From NCBI GenBank assembly GCA_903858555.1, contig CAIOJG010000013.1, positions 1 through 24,711 on the forward strand: a stretch of 24,711 bases of DNA, written 5' to 3'. This document shows, one piece after another, positions 1,169 to 19,768 of the stretch; the first letter of the stretch is position 1; each line of letters starts with the position of its first letter. The position numbers and the translations under genes were made by a program. This DNA is from Candidatus Magasanikiibacteriota bacterium. Lineage in GTDB: Bacteria; Patescibacteriota; Patescibacteriia; Magasanikbacterales; GWA2-37-8. The notes below the pieces were generated by a model. The model did not search any database. It was not told where the DNA came from and saw only the letters and a list, made by a program, of their open reading frames with translations.

Positions 1169-1597
1169 ATGTACTATTCAATTTTTCCACCTCAACAAAT
1201 GACCTTTATCGGACAGATTTTATTAGCCGTTATTTTAGGTGCGGTTTTAGGGGTTCAGCGCGAACGCTGGGGTAAATCGGCTGGTCCACGCACCTATGCT
1301 TTGGTTTGCGCGGGAGCAGCTTTATTTACTATTTTATCCTTCAATTTCTTTGCTAATACCGCCATCGTAGCCGGTGCGGTAGTTAGTGGTATTGGTTTCC
1401 TTGGTGCCGGAACAATCCTGCACAAAGAAAATCGTATCGAAGGGCTCACCACTGCGGCCGGCCTTTGGATTGTATCCGCCGTCGGCATGGCTGTTGGACT
1501 ACAACAATATTTTCTCTCCATTGTTACTACTTTTATAATTTTAATTGTTTTGGTAGCCAATGATAAGTCTATTAAAAAAAATACTCCGGACAAATAA
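1169..1597 (+). CDS. MgtC/SapB family membrane protein (short form, no C-terminal domain)
   Basis: Family motifs G-x-Q-R-E...AG-x-RT, VSGIGFLGAG-x-I and GLTTAA-x-LW; hydrophobic helices. Confidence 0.92.
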   Translation: MYYSIFPPQQMTFIGQILLAVILGAVLGVQRERWGKSAGPRTYALVCAGAALFTILSFNFFANTAIVAGAVVSGIGFLGAGTILHKENRIEGLTTAAGLWIVSAVGMAVGLQQYFLSIVTTFIILIVLVANDKSIKKNTPDK

Positions 1598-1600
1598 GAA

Positions 1601-1721
1601 TAAAATAAAAAATAATCACATATAATTCCTTTAAGCGGATTTTGAGCCCGCTGGCGATACCCTGAGGCCTCGCGGCCGAGGAGAGCGAAAAGGTGATTAT
1701 GTGTGATTATTTTTTATTTTA
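1601..1721 (+). repeat. Dispersed structured repeat, copy 1 (long stem enclosing a conserved 56-nt GC-rich core)
   Basis: Arms 1601-1632 and 1689-1721 pair (two U-G pairs, one bulged U). Core 1633-1688 matches 12551-12606 at 51/56 positions. Confidence 0.9.
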
Positions 1722-1736
1722 TGAAAACTTATATAT

Positions 1737-2240
1737 TTATTTTTTTAAATAAATATTCCCTAACCAAAACAAAACAAATACTAGCAGCCAATCAATATGT
1801 AACTTCTTTAAAATAAATCCAATGTACAAAATTAAAATAAATGGATAACCTAAAATCACCAGTGGATTTTTAAACACACGACGATTAGCTAAAGCTAACA
1901 AGGCCTTATCATCTCCATCCGATGGAATCGCATGCAGACCGACCGCCACTCCAAAATACAACCATACCCAAGGACGCCAATCGTCTACAGTAAAATGAAA
2001 TTTTGCAAACGCAAACAATGTAAACAAAGTATTTACAATCAACGGCCCAATACTGATTAAAAAACCTTGAAAAAAATTATCTGGCTCCTCGTGTTCCACA
2101 TAGCCGGCCGTTTTTCCAAATTGAAATAGTTTTACTTTATAAACTCTCACCCCTGCGGTCAGACAAAAAAATGCGTGCCCAAGCTCGTGCATTGCCACTC
2201 CTGGAGCCGTCAATAAATCATAAATATAATATAGCCACAT
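1737..2240 (-). CDS. Membrane-associated HExxH zinc metalloprotease-like protein (M50-like/DUF3267-type)
   Basis: APG-x-x-x-HELGH motif, G-Y-V-x-H, ISIGPL, PS-x-x-D; several hydrophobic segments. Confidence 0.7.
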   Translation of the reverse strand: MWLYYIYDLLTAPGVAMHELGHAFFCLTAGVRVYKVKLFQFGKTAGYVEHEEPDNFFQGFLISIGPLIVNTLFTLFAFAKFHFTVDDWRPWVWLYFGVAVGLHAIPSDGDDKALLALANRRVFKNPLVILGYPFILILYIGFILKKLHIDWLLVFVLFWLGNIYLKK

Positions 2241-3476: not shown

Positions 3477-4883
3477 TTAGTAGCGATAATGATCGGCTTT
3501 ATAAGGACCGTTTTCAGCAATGCCCAAATACGAAGCCTGCTCTTTAGTAAGTTTAGTAAGTTTTACGCCAATTTTTTCCAAGTGTAAGCGAGCCACTTCT
3601 TCATCCAATTCTTTTGGCAAGCGATATACACCCAAAGCAAATTTTTTGCTCCAGAGTTCCAATTGAGCCAAGGCTTGGTTAGTAAAGCTACTACTCATCA
3701 CAAAACTTGGATGACCGGTGGCACAACCCAAGTTCATGAGACGGCCTTCAGCCAACATGTAAATTTCTTTTTTATTACTCAATACATATTTATCCACTTG
3801 TGGTTTGATGTTGATTTTCTTTACACCCTTGGCATGGTTCAATTTTTCTACCTGAATTTCATTATCAAAGTGACCAATGTTACAAACAATCGCTTGGTCT
3901 TTCATTTTAAGCATGTGTTCTAGACGCACGATATCTTTGTTGCCAGTCGCGGTCACATAGATATCCGCTGTTCCCAAAGTTTCTTCAATAGTCTTTACTT
4001 CATAACCTTCCATCGCTGCCTGCAAGGCACAGATTGGATCAACTTCAGTCACTACCACACGGCAACCCTGTCCACGTAGCGCTTGAGCACAACCCTTGCC
4101 CACATCGCCATAGCCACAAACCACCGCAAGCTTTCCGCCAAGCATTACATCCATGGCGCGATTCAAACCATCTACGATGGAATGACGGCAACCGTAGACG
4201 TTATCAAATTTACTCTTGGTTACGGAGTCATTTACATTGATAGCTGGAAATAATAATTTTCCTTCTTTAAACAATTGATACAAACGATGTACACCGGTAG
4301 TAGTTTCTTCAGAAACACCTTTAATTTTTTTCGCCACGTTGGTCCAACGTTCTTTATTTTTTGGATATTCCAATTTCAAAAGTTTCATCATCTCGCGATA
4401 ATCTTCACCTTCTTTAGAATAATCTTTAGTCAAAAGTTTTGGATTTTTTTCTACTTCTGCTCCTTTGTGGATTAACATCGTAGCGTCACTACCATCATCC
4501 ACAATCAAATCCGGACCACTGCCATTTCCAAAATCCAAGGCGCGTTCAGTACACCACCAGTACTCTTCCAAAGTTTCACCCTTCCATGCAAACACCGGCA
4601 CACCAGCTTTGGCGATAGCGGCGGCGGCATGATCTTGAGTAGAAAAAATATTACATGATACCCAGCGCACTTTTGCACCAAGCTCTACCAAGGTCTCAAT
4701 CAAAACGGCGGTCTGAATAGTCATGTGTAAAGAACCCATGATTTTCGCACCTTTCAAAGGTTTTTTAGCGCCATATTTTTTACGAATAGACATCAAACCC
4801 GGCATTTCTTTTTCCGCGATTTCAATTTCCTTTCTACCCCATTCTGCCAAACTAATATCTTTTACTTTATAATCTTGTGTCAT
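3477..4883 (-). CDS. ahcY: Adenosylhomocysteinase (SAH hydrolase)
   Basis: [53 protein letters not shown]-binding [20 protein letters not shown]-terminus. Confidence 0.98.
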
Positions 4884-12392: not shown

Positions 12393-12406
12393 AATAATGT
12401 ATAATT

Positions 12407-12447
12407 AAGTATGTACTTAGTATATATTAAGTACATACTTTTGTCAA
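12407..12447 (-). promoter_or_regulatory. Toxin-antitoxin promoter with overlapping 13-bp inverted-repeat operator
   Basis: Minus strand TTGACA (12447-12442), N17, TATACT (12424-12419); perfect IR aagtatgtactta (12407-12419) / taagtacatactt (12428-12440). Confidence 0.8.
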
Positions 12448-12519
12448 CGTTTAGTTGTCATCTAGTTTACAACTTTTTTGAGAGTGTCAATTTTAAAAGT
12501 TGACAACCGAATGACAACC

Positions 12520-12637
12520 AAATTTAAAAAAGACAACAATAATTACCTTTGAGCGGGTTTTGAGCCCGCAGGCGATATCCTGAGGCCTCGCGGCCGAGGA
12601 GAGCAAAAAGGTGATTATTGTTGTCTTTTTTAAATTT
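12520..12637 (+). repeat. Dispersed structured repeat, copy 2
   Basis: Arms 12520-12550 and 12607-12637 form 31 bp with a single U-G pair; 56-nt core 91% identical to copy 1. Confidence 0.9.
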
Positions 12638-12638
12638 T

Positions 12639-15308
12639 TTATTTCATCTCCCCCCAACTATGTCCAAAATTCACATCCACTCGAATTGGTACTTTTAATT
12701 TTACCACACCCTCCATCACTTCCTTTACCATCTCACCAAATTTCTTTTCTTTCCCTTTTGGCAACTCAAACACCAACTCATCATGCACCTGCAAAAGCAT
12801 TTTAGCATCAAAACTTTTTAATTCAGGCAATACTTCAATCATCGCCATCTTTATCAAATCCGCGGCCGTACCTTGAATCGGGTGGTTTATCGCCATACGT
12901 TCAGCCGCATTACGCAGTTGAAAATTTTGTGAGTTCAATTCTGGAATATAACGACGACGTCCAAATAAAGTTTCACAATAGCCTTCTTTTTTAGTAAAAG
13001 CAATAGTATCATCCAGATATTTTTTAACTCCACTAAATTGTTCAAAATATTTTTTAATAAAATCTTTGGCCTGCCAATGAGGAATCTCCGCGCGCCAACT
13101 CAAACCATAAGTCCCCATGCCGTAGAGCACCCCAAAATTTACTTCCTTAGCAGCCCGACGCATTTCCTTGGTCACTTCTTCGAGCGGCACACCATTGATG
13201 GCTGCCGCGGTGGCTTTATGAATATCCAAATCATTTTCAAAAATTTCCATCATGTTTTTATCTTGAGCCATGGAAGCCACAATGCGCAATTCAATCTGAG
13301 AATAATCCACACTCACCAAAGTATTACCTTCCTCTGCAATAAAAACTTTGCGCACCTCACGACCAAGCTCGGTACGAATCGGAATATTTTGCATGTTTGG
13401 ATCAGACGAAGATAAACGACCGGTCGCAGCCACCGCTTGATTAAAAGTAGTATGAATGCGCCCAGTTTTTTTATTGATCAAAGTTGGTAAAACATCCACG
13501 TAAGTATTTTGCAATTTGCTCAACTCACGGAAAGTTTCAATCTCGGCAATAATCGGATGCAAACCGTGCATTTTTTCGAGCTGTTCCGCTGAAGTGGACA
13601 AGCCGGTTTTACCTTTTTTAATTCCCTCAACAGGTATGTCTAATTTTTCAAATAATACTTCTCGCAGCTGTAGTGGTGAAGCAATATTAAATTCCATCCC
13701 TGCCAACTCATAAATCTTTTTAGAAACCTGAGCAATACTTTCGGCCACTTCTTTGGAAAGTTTTTGGAGCATTTCCAAATCCACCGCAATCCCGTTTAAC
13801 TCCATTTGCGCCAATACAATCAAAAGTGGCATTTCCAGTTTTTGCATCAAACCCAAATTATCTGTTTTGACCAATTCCGCTTTTATTTTTTCTACAGTTT
13901 GAGAAACCAAAAATAATTCTTGCGTTACCGCTTTCGTATCCACTCCAAATAAACTTTCTTGACCACTTCCCACAGCTAATTCTCTACCTAAAATTTTTAA
14001 AACTACACTGGCCGCATCATGAGCGCGTGTGCCAGGGTTAAGCAAATAAGACCCAATCATTACATCAAACAGTGGATTTTTAATTTTCAAATCTTTAGCA
14101 TTACAATAAATTGCTTTCACCAATTGTTTTAAATCATGCCCAATTAACTCAATTTTTTCCTCAGAAAAAATCGGCCAAAAATCGGCCACCAAACTATCTT
14201 TAATATAAAAACCAGCTTCGCCCACCACCACACTCAATCCGAGCAACTGGCTGGTAATAATATCCTTACCATTTAAAATTGCCCGACAGGAAAACTTTCC
14301 TTGATCTTTTATTTTTTGAAAAATTTCTTTTACTTCTTTTTTATCTTGAACTTCAGTAAAAATAAAATCCGATATTTTTTTATGTTTTACCGGCTTAGCC
14401 ACTTCCGCCGCTTCGACTTCGGCCCCAGGAATTCTTTTCAACAAAGAAACAAACTCAAACTTCTGAAATATTTTGACCACTTTTTCGCGATCATAATTTT
14501 CCAACACCGCATCCTCCAATTTAAAATTTAAATCTGCCACCGCGCAATCTATCGTTGCCAATTCGTAACTCATCGTTGCGCTTTCATGCCCCTCTACCAT
14601 TTTTTTCAAAACACTCGCGCTAAACAATTCACTTTTTTCTTTTTTACTTTCTTTTTCTACCACTTTATAAATCTCATCCAAATTTCCAAATTTCACTATC
14701 AGATCCGTCGCAGTCTTTTCACCAATCCCTGGCACGCCCGGAATATTATCTGAAGTATCACCACGCAAAGCTTTATAATCCACTACCAACTCCGGTCCAA
14801 AACCAAAACGTTTTTTCACTTCATCAATATCGTATATCACAATATCGTTCATACCTTTACGCAAAGTATAAACTTTTATTTTTTTATCCACGAGTTGCAA
14901 GGTATCCATATCGCCCGTCACAATATACACCTCGTCCACATCAGACTCAACCGTTTTCACCACCGTTCCAATCACATCATCAGCCTCAAAACCTTTTTTC
15001 TCAAAAATTGGAATATTAAAAGCCTCCACCAATTCATGCACCAAAGGAATTTGATCATAAAGTTCCTGATCCGCCTTCACGCGCGTTGCTTTATATTTAT
15101 CGTATTTTACATTGCGAAAAGTTCCACCGGCCACATCAAAACTAACACACATGTGCGTCGGCTTTAAATCTTTCCAAACTTTTAGCAACATCGAAGTAAA
15201 ACCATACACCGCATTCACCATTTTTCCGTCTTTGGTATGCATCGGTGGAATAGCGTGGTATCCGCGGTGAATGATAGCGTTACCGTCAATAATTACAAAT
15301 TTTTTCAT
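12639..15308 (-). CDS. polA: DNA polymerase I (3'-5' exonuclease motifs look degenerate)
   Basis: IDGNAIIHRGYHA and GD-x-SDNIPGVPGIGEKTA (5' nuclease); DYSQIELR, K-x-x-NFG-x-x-YG and QVHDEL polymerase motifs. Confidence 0.98.
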   Translation of the reverse strand: MKKFVIIDGNAIIHRGYHAIPPMHTKDGKMVNAVYGFTSMLLKVWKDLKPTHMCVSFDVAGGTFRNVKYDKYKATRVKADQELYDQIPLVHELVEAFNIPIFEKKGFEADDVIGTVVKTVESDVDEVYIVTGDMDTLQLVDKKIKVYTLRKGMNDIVIYDIDEVKKRFGFGPELVVDYKALRGDTSDNIPGVPGIGEKTATDLIVKFGNLDEIYKVVEKESKKEKSELFSASVLKKMVEGHESATMSYELATIDCAVADLNFKLEDAVLENYDREKVVKIFQKFEFVSLLKRIPGAEVEAAEVAKPVKHKKISDFIFTEVQDKKEVKEIFQKIKDQGKFSCRAILNGKDIITSQLLGLSVVVGEAGFYIKDSLVADFWPIFSEEKIELIGHDLKQLVKAIYCNAKDLKIKNPLFDVMIGSYLLNPGTRAHDAASVVLKILGRELAVGSGQESLFGVDTKAVTQELFLVSQTVEKIKAELVKTDNLGLMQKLEMPLLIVLAQMELNGIAVDLEMLQKLSKEVAESIAQVSKKIYELAGMEFNIASPLQLREVLFEKLDIPVEGIKKGKTGLSTSAEQLEKMHGLHPIIAEIETFRELSKLQNTYVDVLPTLINKKTGRIHTTFNQAVAATGRLSSSDPNMQNIPIRTELGREVRKVFIAEEGNTLVSVDYSQIELRIVASMAQDKNMMEIFENDLDIHKATAAAINGVPLEEVTKEMRRAAKEVNFGVLYGMGTYGLSWRAEIPHWQAKDFIKKYFEQFSGVKKYLDDTIAFTKKEGYCETLFGRRRYIPELNSQNFQLRNAAERMAINHPIQGTAADLIKMAMIEVLPELKSFDAKMLLQVHDELVFELPKGKEKKFGEMVKEVMEGVVKLKVPIRVDVNFGHSWGEMK

Positions 15309-15325: not shown

Positions 15326-15354
15326 ATTTTACCCTTAAACTTATTTTTAAGCAA
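15326..15354 (-). promoter_or_regulatory. Candidate polA promoter
   Basis: Minus strand TTGCTT (15354-15349), N17, TAAAAT (15331-15326). Confidence 0.55.
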
Positions 15355-15389
15355 TAAAAAAACACTGAACAACAGTGCTGGGGCGGAGC

Positions 15390-15424
15390 GACACAAGGGC
15401 GGATTCTAGCTCCGCCCTTGTGTC
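15390..15424. other. Perfect 14-bp GC-rich hairpin downstream of the 49-aa ORF
   Basis: gacacaagggcgga-ttctagc-tccgcccttgtgtc. A second small hairpin cactg/cagtg plus a minus-strand U-tract lies at 15356-15377. Confidence 0.7.
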
Positions 15425-15442
15425 AATCAATCTTTCTGTGGA

Positions 15443-15592
15443 TCAACGGCGTTGATGCGTCGGCGAACACCGCTTGCGCTTGCGCCGACCACGCTCAATG
15501 TTCTTGTGCAACTCTTTGCGTTTTTCTTGCTGACGCCTCCGCGCATGTTCACGTGGACTAAAATCAACCTCTTTCGTCGACTGTTCGGCCAT
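15443..15592 (-). CDS. Small Arg/Lys-rich hypothetical protein (49 aa; not in ORF track)
   Basis: MAEQSTKEVDFSPREHARRRQQEKRKELHKNIERGRRKRKRCSPTHQRR. GGAGGT lies 5 nt before the ATG; promoter upstream, hairpins downstream. Confidence 0.6.
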   Translation of the reverse strand: MAEQSTKEVDFSPREHARRRQQEKRKELHKNIERGRRKRKRCSPTHQRR

Positions 15593-15662
15593 GAGACACC
15601 TCCAGAATGATCAAGACGACCGATCACGACAGCCTTGTTGCTGTCGAGATAAATACCCAAAA

Positions 15663-15691
15663 ATAGTACATCCAAAATTAATAATAGTCAA
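15663..15691 (-). promoter_or_regulatory. Sigma70 promoter of the 49-aa ORF
   Basis: Minus strand TTGACT (15691-15686), N17, TACTAT (15668-15663). Confidence 0.65.
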
Positions 15692-15692
15692 C

Positions 15693-15718
15693 AAAAAACC
15701 CACTAAAAAGTGGGTTTT
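15693..15718 (-). terminator. tRNA-Cys terminator
   Basis: aaaacccact-aaaa-agtgggtttt; U-tract on the minus strand immediately after the tRNA. Confidence 0.7.
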
Positions 15719-19312: not shown

Positions 19313-19320
19313 TATAAAAT

Positions 19321-19383
19321 AAAAACCACCCGCAACCCATAACTACAAACTTTGTAGGCATGGGTTGGTAACGGGTGGTTTTT
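19321..19383 (+). terminator. Long interrupted hairpin/terminator after hppA
   Basis: Nested pairs aaaaaccacccg/cgggtggttttt, caacccat/atgggttg and ctacaa/ttgtag, followed by T residues. Confidence 0.7.
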
Positions 19384-19400
19384 TATTTCCCAATCCCCAG

Positions 19401-19436
19401 CGCCCCGACTTCCTCATCACTGATTCAGTCGGGGCG
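19401..19436 (-). terminator. GC-rich hairpin 3' of the 58-aa ORF
   Basis: cgccccgact (19401-19410) / agtcggggcg (19427-19436), a perfect 10-bp stem. Confidence 0.55.
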
Positions 19437-19444
19437 AGCACGGC

Positions 19445-19621
19445 TCAAGCCTCCATCTCGAAGAAATTTCCAAACTGCTTTTTCCGGTTTTTGAAACGGA
19501 CTTTGCCGAACTCGACCGCTTCGCGAGTCAGGAACTTCACCGCAAAACACCCCACCGCCGCGAGCATGAACAACGCTTCGACCGTGTTGATATTTTGCGA
19601 ATTCAGGCGCTTGCTCACCAT
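19445..19621 (-). CDS. Small hypothetical protein with one hydrophobic segment (58 aa; not in ORF track)
   Basis: MVSKRLNSQNINTVEALFMLAAVGCFAVKFLTREAVEFGKVRFKNRKKQFGNFFEMEA. GGAGGG lies 4 nt before the ATG; hairpin after the TGA. Confidence 0.6.
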   Translation of the reverse strand: MVSKRLNSQNINTVEALFMLAAVGCFAVKFLTREAVEFGKVRFKNRKKQFGNFFEMEA

Positions 19622-19714
19622 CTGCCCCTCCGATTCTAACGGTTGAACACTATTTAGTACACACTAGGAAACGATTATAATATAAATCATTCAGTTTATA
19701 AGTCAATCCCACGG

Positions 19715-19743
19715 TTGACTTTTCCTTTAATTTAAGTTAGAAT
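19715..19743 (+). promoter_or_regulatory. Sigma70 promoter of tig
   Basis: TTGACT (19715-19720), N17, TAGAAT (19738-19743). Confidence 0.75.
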
Positions 19744-19768
19744 CCACTCGTAATTTTAACTTGAATTT

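What the first reader, a model, noticed from the sequence alone, without database searches (positions are those of the whole stretch)
1601..1721. Conserved-core, covarying-stem repeat element (copy 1 of 2): candidate new structured RNA or small mobile palindrome
A 56-nt GC-rich core (agcgg[a/g]ttttgagcccgc[t/a]ggcgata[c/t]cctgaggcctcgcggccgaggagagc) recurs 11 kb away with only 5 differences. Each copy is closed by a 31-32 bp stem. The inner ~12 bp are shared, but the outer part differs (…taatcacat/gtgtgatta… here vs …gacaacaat/attgttgtc… in copy 2) and still pairs, which is compensatory change. Every internal stem mismatch in both copies is U-G on the + strand (C-A on minus), implying the + strand is the folded one. 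The core has its own hairpins (gcgg(g)/cccgc; cctcg-cggc-cgagg) and a gaggcctc palindrome. A plain terminator does not need a conserved core; a protein-bound ncRNA, ribozyme-like element or REP/MITE-like nuclease substrate does (inference). This copy fills almost the whole gap between convergent genes.
Basis: partly seen in the sequence, partly recalled or inferred. Interest (0 to 1): 0.82.

Follow-up and report, generated by a model that had tools for sequence, protein, structure and literature searches.

The report
Y-capped terminator-like hairpin repeat family
The flagged sequence is one of about 23 copies in this 1-Mb Candidatus Magasanikbacteria (CPR) genome of an uncatalogued ~125-base repeat, a long terminator-like hairpin capped by a conserved Y-shaped fold; it sits just after genes, replaces ordinary terminators, and shows no sign of a transposase of its own.

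Summary
Window 1600-1722 and 12520-12637 are two of about 23 copies in this genome. The family occurs in all 11 congeners searched, in 7 of 25 other genera of the family, and in 0 of 148 genomes from other families of the class.

Each copy has a 25-45 bp closing stem (P1) and a 56-58 nt core. The core folds as a three-way junction: tandem G.A plus G-C/C-G, hairpin P2, hairpin P3 with a UCGC loop, and an A-rich linker. Covariation on a structure-blind alignment of 80 copies is strong. G.U-type stem mismatches outnumber A.C-type about 8:1 on the core-sense strand, whatever the direction of neighbouring genes.

Copies lie 2-15 nt after stop codons, mostly between convergent genes. At syntenic sites congeners carry plain terminators with unrelated stems, so the whole hairpin replaced them. 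Cores flip and swap subtype in place and evolve in concert within a genome.

I found no Rfam match, no target-site duplication, no in-frame copies and no autonomous parent. The element does not co-occur with Y1/RAYT, TnpB, IS110, DDE_3 or RT genes.

Best reading: a mobile, terminator-like palindromic repeat (closest: SPRITE, REP/REPIN, Correia, RPE) with a strand-specifically constrained cap. No expression data could be found. The scan had already noted this family in other Magasanikbacteria genomes.

The parts
1600..1632 (+). Copy 1, 5' arm of closing stem P1 (A-tract, variable block AATCACATAT, inner stem AATT-CCTTT)
1633..1689 (+). Copy 1, conserved core (A-type): junction AA/GC 1633-1636; P2 1637-1662 (GCC-CGCU-GGC hairpin closed by tandem G.A and U.U); P3 1663-1681 (GGCC-UCGC-GGCC closed by tandem G.A); linker and closing GC-GA 1682-1689
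1690..1722 (+). Copy 1, 3' arm of P1 ending in a T-tract
12520..12550 (+). Copy 2, 5' arm of P1
12551..12606 (+). Copy 2, conserved core (A-type, 5 differences from copy 1)
12607..12637 (+). Copy 2, 3' arm of P1; ends 1 nt before the polA stop codon on the opposite strand
1169..1597 (+). MgtC-family gene whose stop lies 3 nt before copy 1
1737..2240 (-). Convergent Peptidase_M50B-like gene ending 15 nt after copy 1
12639..15308 (-). polA (DNA polymerase I); copy 2 lies directly downstream of it and antisense to it

Best explanation
The element is a non-coding, non-autonomous palindromic repeat family specific to one family of Candidatus Magasanikbacteria. The unit is a whole terminator-like hairpin: an A-tract, a 7-9 bp GC-rich stem block, a conserved ~12-bp inner stem, a 56-58 nt Y-shaped (three-way-junction) cap, and the mirror arm ending in a T-tract. 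Shown: new copies appear at gene 3' ends, where they take the place of ordinary bidirectional intrinsic terminators, or more rarely sit in short spacers inside operons. Once in place a copy persists across species. Its stems change only by compensated substitutions. Its cap can flip or be exchanged for another subtype, and caps stay alike within a genome (concerted evolution). The cap's fold is under purifying selection, and the selection is strand-specific. Inferred: at convergent sites the hairpin plus U-tract works as the bidirectional transcription terminator and 3'-end stabiliser of the flanking genes. Spread and homogenisation run on host recombination or template switching between hairpins, using the A/T tracts, inner stems and cap as homology, rather than on a dedicated transposase. 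The cap is probably a recognition or folding module on a single strand, RNA more likely than DNA.
For: Copy number and distribution: 23 copies in G000; 11 of 11 congeners, 7 of 25 other genera of the family and 2 weak cases elsewhere in the order; 0 of 148 genomes of other families of the class; organism labels are Candidatus Magasanikbacteria. Fold: RNAalifold finds 34 of 41 pairs with double changes. On a MAFFT alignment of 80 distinct copies, 89.6% of cells pair against 74.8% shuffled, the covariation score is 0.423 against 0.160 (0 of 500 shuffles reach it) and slid controls give <=0.127; P2 has double changes in 6 of 6 pairs and P3 in 6 of 7. Strand: 59 G.U-type against 7 A.C-type stem mismatches under strand-symmetric scoring, and the excess persists in copies antisense to the upstream gene (19 against 3). 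Location: of 104 classifiable copies, 36 are convergent, 60 tandem and 8 apparently divergent, with median 8-12 nt from the upstream stop. A- and T-tracts flank about 70% of convergent copies. Plain terminators of G000 share the same grammar (126 hairpins). Replacement: at the syntenic sites of window copy 1 and of the C118 copy, congeners have plain terminators with stems conserved among themselves (ATCCAGA; CTCCTG), while the G000 stems resemble G000 paralogs. In-situ evolution, flips and subtype swaps at orthologous sites. Concerted evolution: cores are 88-95% identical to the best G000 paralog against 64-83% to the copy at the orthologous site in another species. No mobilising enzyme: Y1, TnpB, IS110 and DDE_3 absent, RT not co-occurring, no split halves around a gene, no TSD.
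Against: There is no expression or 3'-end data: no RNA run is listed, and only assembled contigs of one lake metagenome hold the genome. Termination and any RNA role are therefore inferred. Only about 30% of tandem-context copies have U-tracts, and some sit inside operons (rpmH-rnpA), where termination would be harmful. The strand-specific G.U excess in copies antisense to the local genes is not explained by read-through mRNA. The sharp contrast between a very variable 7-9 bp stem block and nearly invariant cap, inner stem and tracts among paralogs is not accounted for by simple recombination. Filled and empty alleles come from species that are 15-30% diverged, so the exact borders of the transferred unit are not fixed. 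A trans-acting enzyme of an unknown family cannot be excluded.
Confidence: 0.5

Rival explanations
1. A multi-copy structured non-coding RNA in its own right. The sense strand would be transcribed, from read-through or from its own promoter, and the Y-shaped cap would bind a protein or act in RNA processing, with P1 as an RNase III-type processing stem. Terminator-like placement would be secondary.
For: Strong covariation in P2 and P3 and conserved unpaired nucleotides (GA/GA junction, UU bulge, A-rich linker, UCGC loop). G.U and tandem G.A only make sense on one strand. The sense strand folds 8-9 kcal/mol better than the antisense strand. The strand signal is independent of host gene direction, which would fit independent transcription.
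Against: No conserved promoter-like element lies at a fixed distance: the inner-stem TATAAT-like hexamer of G000 is not conserved in relatives. In 42 of 60 tandem contexts the sense strand is antisense to both neighbours, with a median of only 41 nt to the next gene. There are 20-30 copies per 1-Mb genome, with presence/absence between congeners at syntenic sites. No Rfam family matches. No RNA data exist.
Confidence: 0.2
2. A single-stranded-DNA mobile element, like PATEs of IS200/IS605 or integron attC sites. The sense strand would fold as DNA and be cut and pasted by a trans-acting HUH or other structure-specific enzyme not yet recognised.
For: Strand-specific folding independent of transcription direction. 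Orientation bias relative to local GC skew (71 of 107 negative) and to gene direction (42:18). No TSD, as for IS200/IS605. The related family X has the very stable GCGAAGC mini-hairpin motif at its tip (its stability as DNA is my recollection of the literature, not tested here).
Against: Y1_Tnp is missing from all 11 element-bearing congeners and from complete element-bearing genomes. The one G000 copy carries different flanking hairpins. No TnpB, IS110 or DDE_3 gene. No autonomous copy. The sense strand tends to lie on the C-rich strand, which is not the side expected for a lagging-strand-template mechanism if the leading strand is G-rich; this is an inference confounded with gene direction.
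Confidence: 0.15
3. A small cassette (inner stem plus cap) that inserts into the loops of pre-existing terminator hairpins. The variable outer stem would then be host terminator sequence.
For: The outer and middle parts of P1 have exactly the grammar of plain G000 terminators. At the tRNA-adjacent site G000 C9 versus L086, the empty allele is a plain terminator sharing the outermost 8 bp. Same stem with a different or inverted cap at orthologous sites. Other terminator hairpins of G000 carry unrelated nested modules.
Against: At two well-sampled syntenic sites the resident terminator stem conserved in 4-5 congeners (ATCCAGA; CTCCTG) is unrelated to the G000 stem, which instead matches G000 paralogs. 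Two filled/empty pairs show the whole hairpin missing, with no hairpin in the empty allele. Arms are closer to paralogs than to the copy at the orthologous site.
Confidence: 0.12

Closest known systems
[quoted passage not shown]
   Same: A dispersed, non-coding, ~100-130 bp repeat that looks like an intrinsic terminator and sits after genes, with no transposase of its own.
   Different: Unrelated host phylum. Here the hairpin tip is a conserved, covarying three-way junction with strand-specific constraints, and the stems differ between copies. No sequence comparison with SPRITE was made.
REP / BIME / REPIN elements with RAYT (Y1 HUH) transposases
   Same: Extragenic palindromic repeats at gene 3' ends, in many copies, with possible effects on termination and mRNA stability.
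   Different: REPs are 20-40 nt imperfect palindromes with conserved sequence and a RAYT partner. Here the stem varies and the cap is conserved, and no RAYT co-occurs.
Bacterial MITEs such as Correia/CREE, ERIC and RUP (PMC3184786)
   Same: Size of 100-160 bp, fold into long hairpins, intergenic, non-autonomous.
   Different: MITEs have conserved terminal inverted repeats matching an IS and direct target-site duplications (often TA). Here there is no TSD, the outer arms are copy-specific, and no parent IS was found.
Rickettsia palindromic elements (RPE), named as closest by earlier scan notes on similar Patescibacteria repeats
   Same: A palindromic repeat family in a reduced genome with no known transposase.
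   Different: RPEs are known for in-frame insertion into genes. None of 114 copies of this family lies in frame inside a gene.
Integron attC sites
   Same: Structure rather than stem sequence is conserved, folding is strand-specific, and the length is ~60-140 nt.
   Different: attC sites have conserved ends and a variable centre, form cassette arrays and need IntI. Here the centre is conserved and the copies are dispersed singly among housekeeping genes.

Membership tests
REP/REPIN (RAYT-associated) | Co-occurrence with a RAYT / Y1_Tnp gene, usually flanked by the repeats | tested here: not met
   One Y1_Tnp gene in G000, flanked by unrelated CCCGCCGCAAGCGGCGGGG hairpins. 0 of 11 element-bearing congeners have the family.
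REP/REPIN (RAYT-associated) | Short (20-40 nt) imperfect palindrome of conserved sequence | tested here: not met
   The unit is ~125 nt with a 56-58 nt branched cap and copy-specific stems.
MITE | Direct target-site duplication flanking the element | tested here: not met
   The longest flanking direct repeat averages 2.59 nt against 2.63 nt in permuted flanks.
MITE | Terminal inverted repeats shared with a parent IS or transposase in the genome | tested here: not met
   No DDE_3, IS110 or TnpB gene in G000. No split halves around a gene. The outer arms differ between copies. Other transposase families were not searched.
RPE-like palindromic elements | Copies inserted in frame inside protein-coding genes | tested here: not met
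   0 of 114 copies. The single candidate (L122) is intergenic between rpmH and rnpA.
Intrinsic (Rho-independent) bidirectional terminator / SPRITE-like repeat | Stable hairpin directly followed by a U-tract (and preceded by an A-tract), placed after stop codons | tested here: met
   Median 8-12 nt after the stop. Tracts flank about 70% of convergent copies but only about 30% of tandem copies. Same grammar as 126 plain terminator hairpins.
Intrinsic (Rho-independent) bidirectional terminator / SPRITE-like repeat | Actual termination of transcription | not testable with these tools
   No RNA run is listed for this organism.
Any Rfam family, including known self-cleaving ribozymes and riboswitches | Covariance-model match | tested here: not met
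   Only tRNAs at gathering score. Nothing meaningful at E<=10 around the element. Nothing in L122.
Integron attC | Tandem cassette arrays | tested here: not met
   Copies are dispersed singly among housekeeping genes.
Integron attC | An IntI integrase in the genome | not tested
   No search for IntI was made.
Retroelement-linked RNA (DGR, retron, group II) | Co-occurrence with a reverse transcriptase | tested here: not met
   G000 has five RVT_1 genes, but complete element-bearing genomes G004, G023 and G029 and several others have none.

The most novel reading that the evidence does not exclude
The Y-shaped cap would be the recognition module of a propagation system that has not been described. 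A folded single strand, RNA or DNA, would direct copying of a whole terminator hairpin into other terminators ('terminator homing'). This could work through an unknown structure-specific protein, or through break-induced or template-switch gene conversion at hairpin tips. Several cap families (R1, X, Y and the larger element in G004/G007) would share the same GA-GC...GC-GA junction as a common handle.
Probability: 0.15. Interest if true: 0.8.

Novelty: new variant of a known kind. Interest (0 to 1): 0.55.

Why it matters
CPR/Patescibacteria genomes are extremely streamlined, yet this lineage keeps 20-30 copies (about 0.3% of the genome) of an elaborate structured repeat at the ends of housekeeping genes such as polA, mgtC and rpmH-rnpA. 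If the repeats serve as terminators, a large share of 3'-end formation in these organisms runs through a mobile, self-homogenising module. If they are purely selfish, they are a transposase-free element that persists in 1-Mb genomes. The strand-specific, covarying cap implies a recognition event on a single strand that nobody has characterised. Practically, 7 of the 23 copies in this MAG lie within about 550 nt of a contig end. The family may therefore break assemblies and could be used to improve CPR binning and scaffolding.

Tried and rejected
- Rfam at gathering and at E<=10: only tRNAs and noise.
- Hammerhead-type reading of the core, by eye: the CUGANGA / GAAA / UH arrangement is not present, and the B-type core lacks CUGA altogether.
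- K-turn reading of the GA-GC junction, by eye: there is no 3-nt bulge.
- RAYT/Y1, TnpB, IS110, DDE_3 and RT as partners: rejected.
- Autonomous parent with split halves: none.
- TSD: none.
- In-frame intragenic copies: none. The one candidate ORF was antisense junk across rpmH/rnpA.
- Read-level empty sites: impossible. Only Logan contigs of one lake metagenome hold the genome, other assemblies of the same strain are identical at the site, and an exact-protein look-up of the M50B-like gene found nothing.
- RNA evidence: no run listed.
- Dense sampling of the polA 3' site in metagenomes: the neighbourhood is too rearranged to give clean empty alleles. Relatives show plain terminators, one R1 copy (L233), or the next gene directly.
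- Mirror-image gene ends (C118, L050, L113) as evidence that one arm is an inverted copy of the flank: suggestive, but compatible with chance in AT-rich gene ends, so not claimed.
- Five pattern hits in non-CPR MAGs (L052, L062, L073, L094, L110) gave no covariance-model match at E<=1e-8. About 6 chance matches were expected by my estimate from the pattern's 21 specified bases.
- Literature searches for CPR/Magasanikbacteria repeats found nothing relevant.

Full report
**Observation.**
Copy 1 spans 1600-1722 and copy 2 spans 12520-12637. The 56-57 nt cores differ at five positions. Each core is closed by a 31-33 bp stem whose inner ~12 bp are shared and whose middle differs but pairs. The + strand folds better than the minus strand: -52.5 and -61.3 kcal/mol against -44 and -52. 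Copy 1 fills the spacer between the MgtC stop and the stop of a convergent M50B-like gene. Copy 2 lies 1 nt from the polA stop, on the opposite strand.

**A large, lineage-specific family.**
BLAST and a covariance model (R1, built from 16 own-genome copies) find 23 copies in the 1.04-Mb, 190-contig genome. Seven of them lie within about 550 nt of a contig end. The copies fall into two core subtypes, A and B. The model finds 3-31 matches per genome, counting some antisense doubles. It matches all 11 genomes of the same genus, 7 of 25 other genera of the family, and two genomes of other families of the order weakly. It finds nothing in 148 genomes from about 90 other families of the class. An exact-pattern scan of species-level genomes returned more than 120 stretches. 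Those that the model confirmed come from MAGs labelled Candidatus Magasanikbacteria or Patescibacteria, plus TPA records labelled 'uncultured Gammaproteobacteria'. The flanking genes of those TPA records are 90-97% identical to Magasanikbacteria genes. Rfam has no match.

**Anatomy.**
P1 is 25-45 bp long. The core reads: UUU, then G.A/A.G tandem mismatches, then a 2-bp G-C/C-G helix. P2 follows (GGG, a UU bulge, 6-7 bp, a variable loop), then P3 (7 bp, loop UCGC or UCAC), an A-rich linker, GC, GA and AAA. In A-type cores the Watson-Crick pairs at the base of P2 and P3 are replaced by U.U/G.A/A.G motifs.

I tested this fold on a MAFFT alignment of 80 distinct copies that was not fitted to any structure. 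89.6% of cells pair, against 74.8% in shuffles. The covariation score is 0.423 against 0.160, and 0 of 500 shuffles reach it. Slid-partner controls give at most 0.127. P2 has double changes in 6 of 6 pairs and P3 in 6 of 7. A non-Watson-Crick position with U on the 5' side (U.G, U.C or U.U) recurs 5-7 bp from the junction in P1.

**Strand.**
Under strand-symmetric scoring, the stems of 114 unique copies hold 59 G.U-type and 7 A.C-type mismatches on the core-sense strand. Beyond 8 bp from the junction the counts are 31 and 5. The excess holds in copies that are antisense to both neighbouring genes: 19 against 3. It is therefore tied to the element's own orientation and not to the host mRNA.

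**Context.**
Of 104 classifiable copies, 36 lie between convergent genes. A further 42 are downstream of and antisense to a gene in a tandem pair, 18 are downstream and sense, and 8 are apparently divergent. The median distance from the upstream stop is 8-12 nt. A- and T-tracts flank about 70% of convergent copies but only about 30% of tandem copies. No copy is in frame inside a gene. The one candidate lies between rpmH and rnpA, and a second copy in that locus lies between rpmH and dnaA. Flanks read on the sense strand have negative GC skew in 71 of 107 copies. This is a modest bias and is confounded with gene direction.

**What is the unit, and how does it evolve?**
- **Arms in G000.** They read outer AAAAA[T/C]AAAAA, then a 7-9 bp variable GC-rich block, then inner (A)TAATTACCTTT. 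Arm relatedness cuts across core subtype.
- **Terminator grammar.** The 126 plain terminator hairpins of G000 have the same grammar: A-tract, 6-9 bp stem, AT-rich loop, then T5-8[A/G]T.... This first suggested insertion of the cap into existing terminator loops.
- **Two syntenic sites argue otherwise.** Downstream of MgtC, five congeners share a plain terminator with stem ATCCAGA/TCTGGA. At the site of the C118 copy, four congeners share CTCCTG/CAGGAG. In both places the G000 stem is unrelated to the resident stem and nearly identical to G000 paralogs. The whole hairpin has therefore replaced the resident terminator.
- **Non-terminator sites.** Two other filled/empty pairs show the whole hairpin present or absent with no hairpin in the empty allele. 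One tRNA-adjacent site keeps the same outermost 8 bp in the plain-terminator allele.
- **Site turnover.** Of 41 element sites in relatives whose two flanks are adjacent in G000, only 6 are filled there. The rest hold plain terminators, or hairpins with other nested modules.
- **Orthologous filled sites (13 groups).** Stems change by compensated pairs, for example TTAC/GTAA to TCAC/GTGA. P3 shows CAACC/GGUUG, UGCCC/GGGCA and GACCC/GGGUC. The cap can be of another subtype (L051 versus L083) or inverted (L117 versus L119; L109 versus L119 and L117).
- **Concerted evolution.** G000 cores are 88-95% identical to the best G000 paralog, but only 64-83% identical to the copy at the orthologous site in another species.

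**No dedicated machinery found.**
There is no TSD. The one Y1_Tnp gene of G000 has its own hairpins and is not found in any of the 11 congeners. No TnpB, IS110 or DDE_3 gene is present. G000 has five RT genes, but complete element-bearing genomes lack RT. No split halves surround a gene.

**Related modules.**
Among the 36 long hairpins of G000 (stem at least 16 bp, loop at least 25 nt), 19 belong to this family. Four belong to a family X, whose tip is GAGCGAAGCGAG, a minimal GA-GC...GC-GA junction. Four belong to a family Y, which shares the UGAGCCCRCAGGCGA hairpin. G004 and G007 carry a larger nested element with the same junction at the MgtC site.

**Interpretation.**
The best-supported reading is a mobile, terminator-like palindromic repeat with a strand-specifically constrained Y-shaped cap. 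It takes over terminator positions and is kept uniform by recombination between copies. Termination itself, any RNA role and the transfer mechanism are inferred. No RNA run is listed, and only assembled contigs hold this genome.

Three things remain unexplained:
- the very variable 7-9 bp stem block next to nearly invariant neighbours;
- the G.U excess that is independent of gene direction;
- the 42:18 orientation bias in tandem contexts.

**Prior knowledge.**
I found no paper on such repeats in CPR. The review PMC3184786 lists the nearest known classes: SPRITE, Correia, ERIC, REP and RPE. Earlier notes of this scan had already described this same family in three other Magasanikbacteria genomes, and similar Y-capped repeats elsewhere in Patescibacteria. 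I re-tested their main points here: capping of terminator-like hairpins, flipping in place, gain as a whole hairpin, and the proposed Y1 link. The first three hold and the Y1 link does not.

Noticed in passing
G000 contigs C105:7895-8488, C81:18775-19386, C65:114-722, C64:11-574, C63:3689-4309: Five RVT_1 reverse-transcriptase genes in a 1.04-Mb CPR genome (245-388 aa open frames). Congeners have 0-3. The type (DGR, retron or other) was not determined.
   Followed up: partly
G000 C50:48-491 (locus L208): A single IS200/RAYT-type Y1 transposase gene flanked by its own GC-rich hairpins (CCCCGCCGCAAGCAGCGGGG and CACGCCGCAAGCGGCGGGG), unrelated to the element studied.
   Followed up: partly
window about 19317-19390: The terminator after the H+-pyrophosphatase gene is an A-tract/CCACCCG...CGGGTGG/T-tract hairpin. 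Its loop holds a different nested hairpin (CAACCCAT...ATGGGTTG). Relatives carry an R1 copy at this site.
   Followed up: partly
G000 C40:6038-6237, C49:1206-1340, C83:349-538, C84:259-449 (family X); C130:6629-6815, C137:1436-1606, C163:10423-10600, C188:11437-11613 (family Y): Two further families of long hairpins with 95-137 nt structured loops. X has GAGCGAAGCGAG at its tip. Y shares the UGAGCCCRCAGGCGA hairpin with R1 A-type cores, which suggests modular, nested hairpin-in-hairpin elements.
   Followed up: partly
L198 (G007:C5) and L202 (G004:C2), downstream of the MgtC ortholog: A ~150-nt nested palindromic element whose inner part has the same UUU-GA-G[CU]...-GA-AAA junction with two hairpins. 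It may be a larger relative of the family.
   Followed up: no
L122:3610-3696 and 3919-4052: In one relative, two copies sit in the origin region: one between rpmH and rnpA (inside the operon) and one between rpmH and dnaA.
   Followed up: partly
window 15330-15700 and 19400-19760: GC-rich islands in an AT-rich genome. On my reading of the minus strand each carries a small ORF of roughly 50-60 aa.
   Followed up: no
window 12400-12520: Between relB and copy 2 lie repeated TTGACAAC / GTTGTCA motifs and a palindrome (AAGTATGTACTTAGTATATATTAAGTACATACTT). They look like the operator/promoter of the relB antitoxin operon.
   Followed up: no
L049, L054, L056, L066, L067, L071, L074 and others: Several TPA MAGs labelled 'uncultured Gammaproteobacteria' carry this element. 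For those that entered the flank comparison (for example L109), the flanking genes are 90-97% identical to Magasanikbacteria genes. The labels are probably wrong.
   Followed up: partly
G000 C118:1690-1850; L050:2276-2434; L113:1901-2029: In a few copies the paired stem extends into the last 2-5 codons and stop of both convergent genes, so that the two gene ends mirror each other. This may be a chance effect of AT-rich ends, or a trace of how the arms arise.
   Followed up: partly
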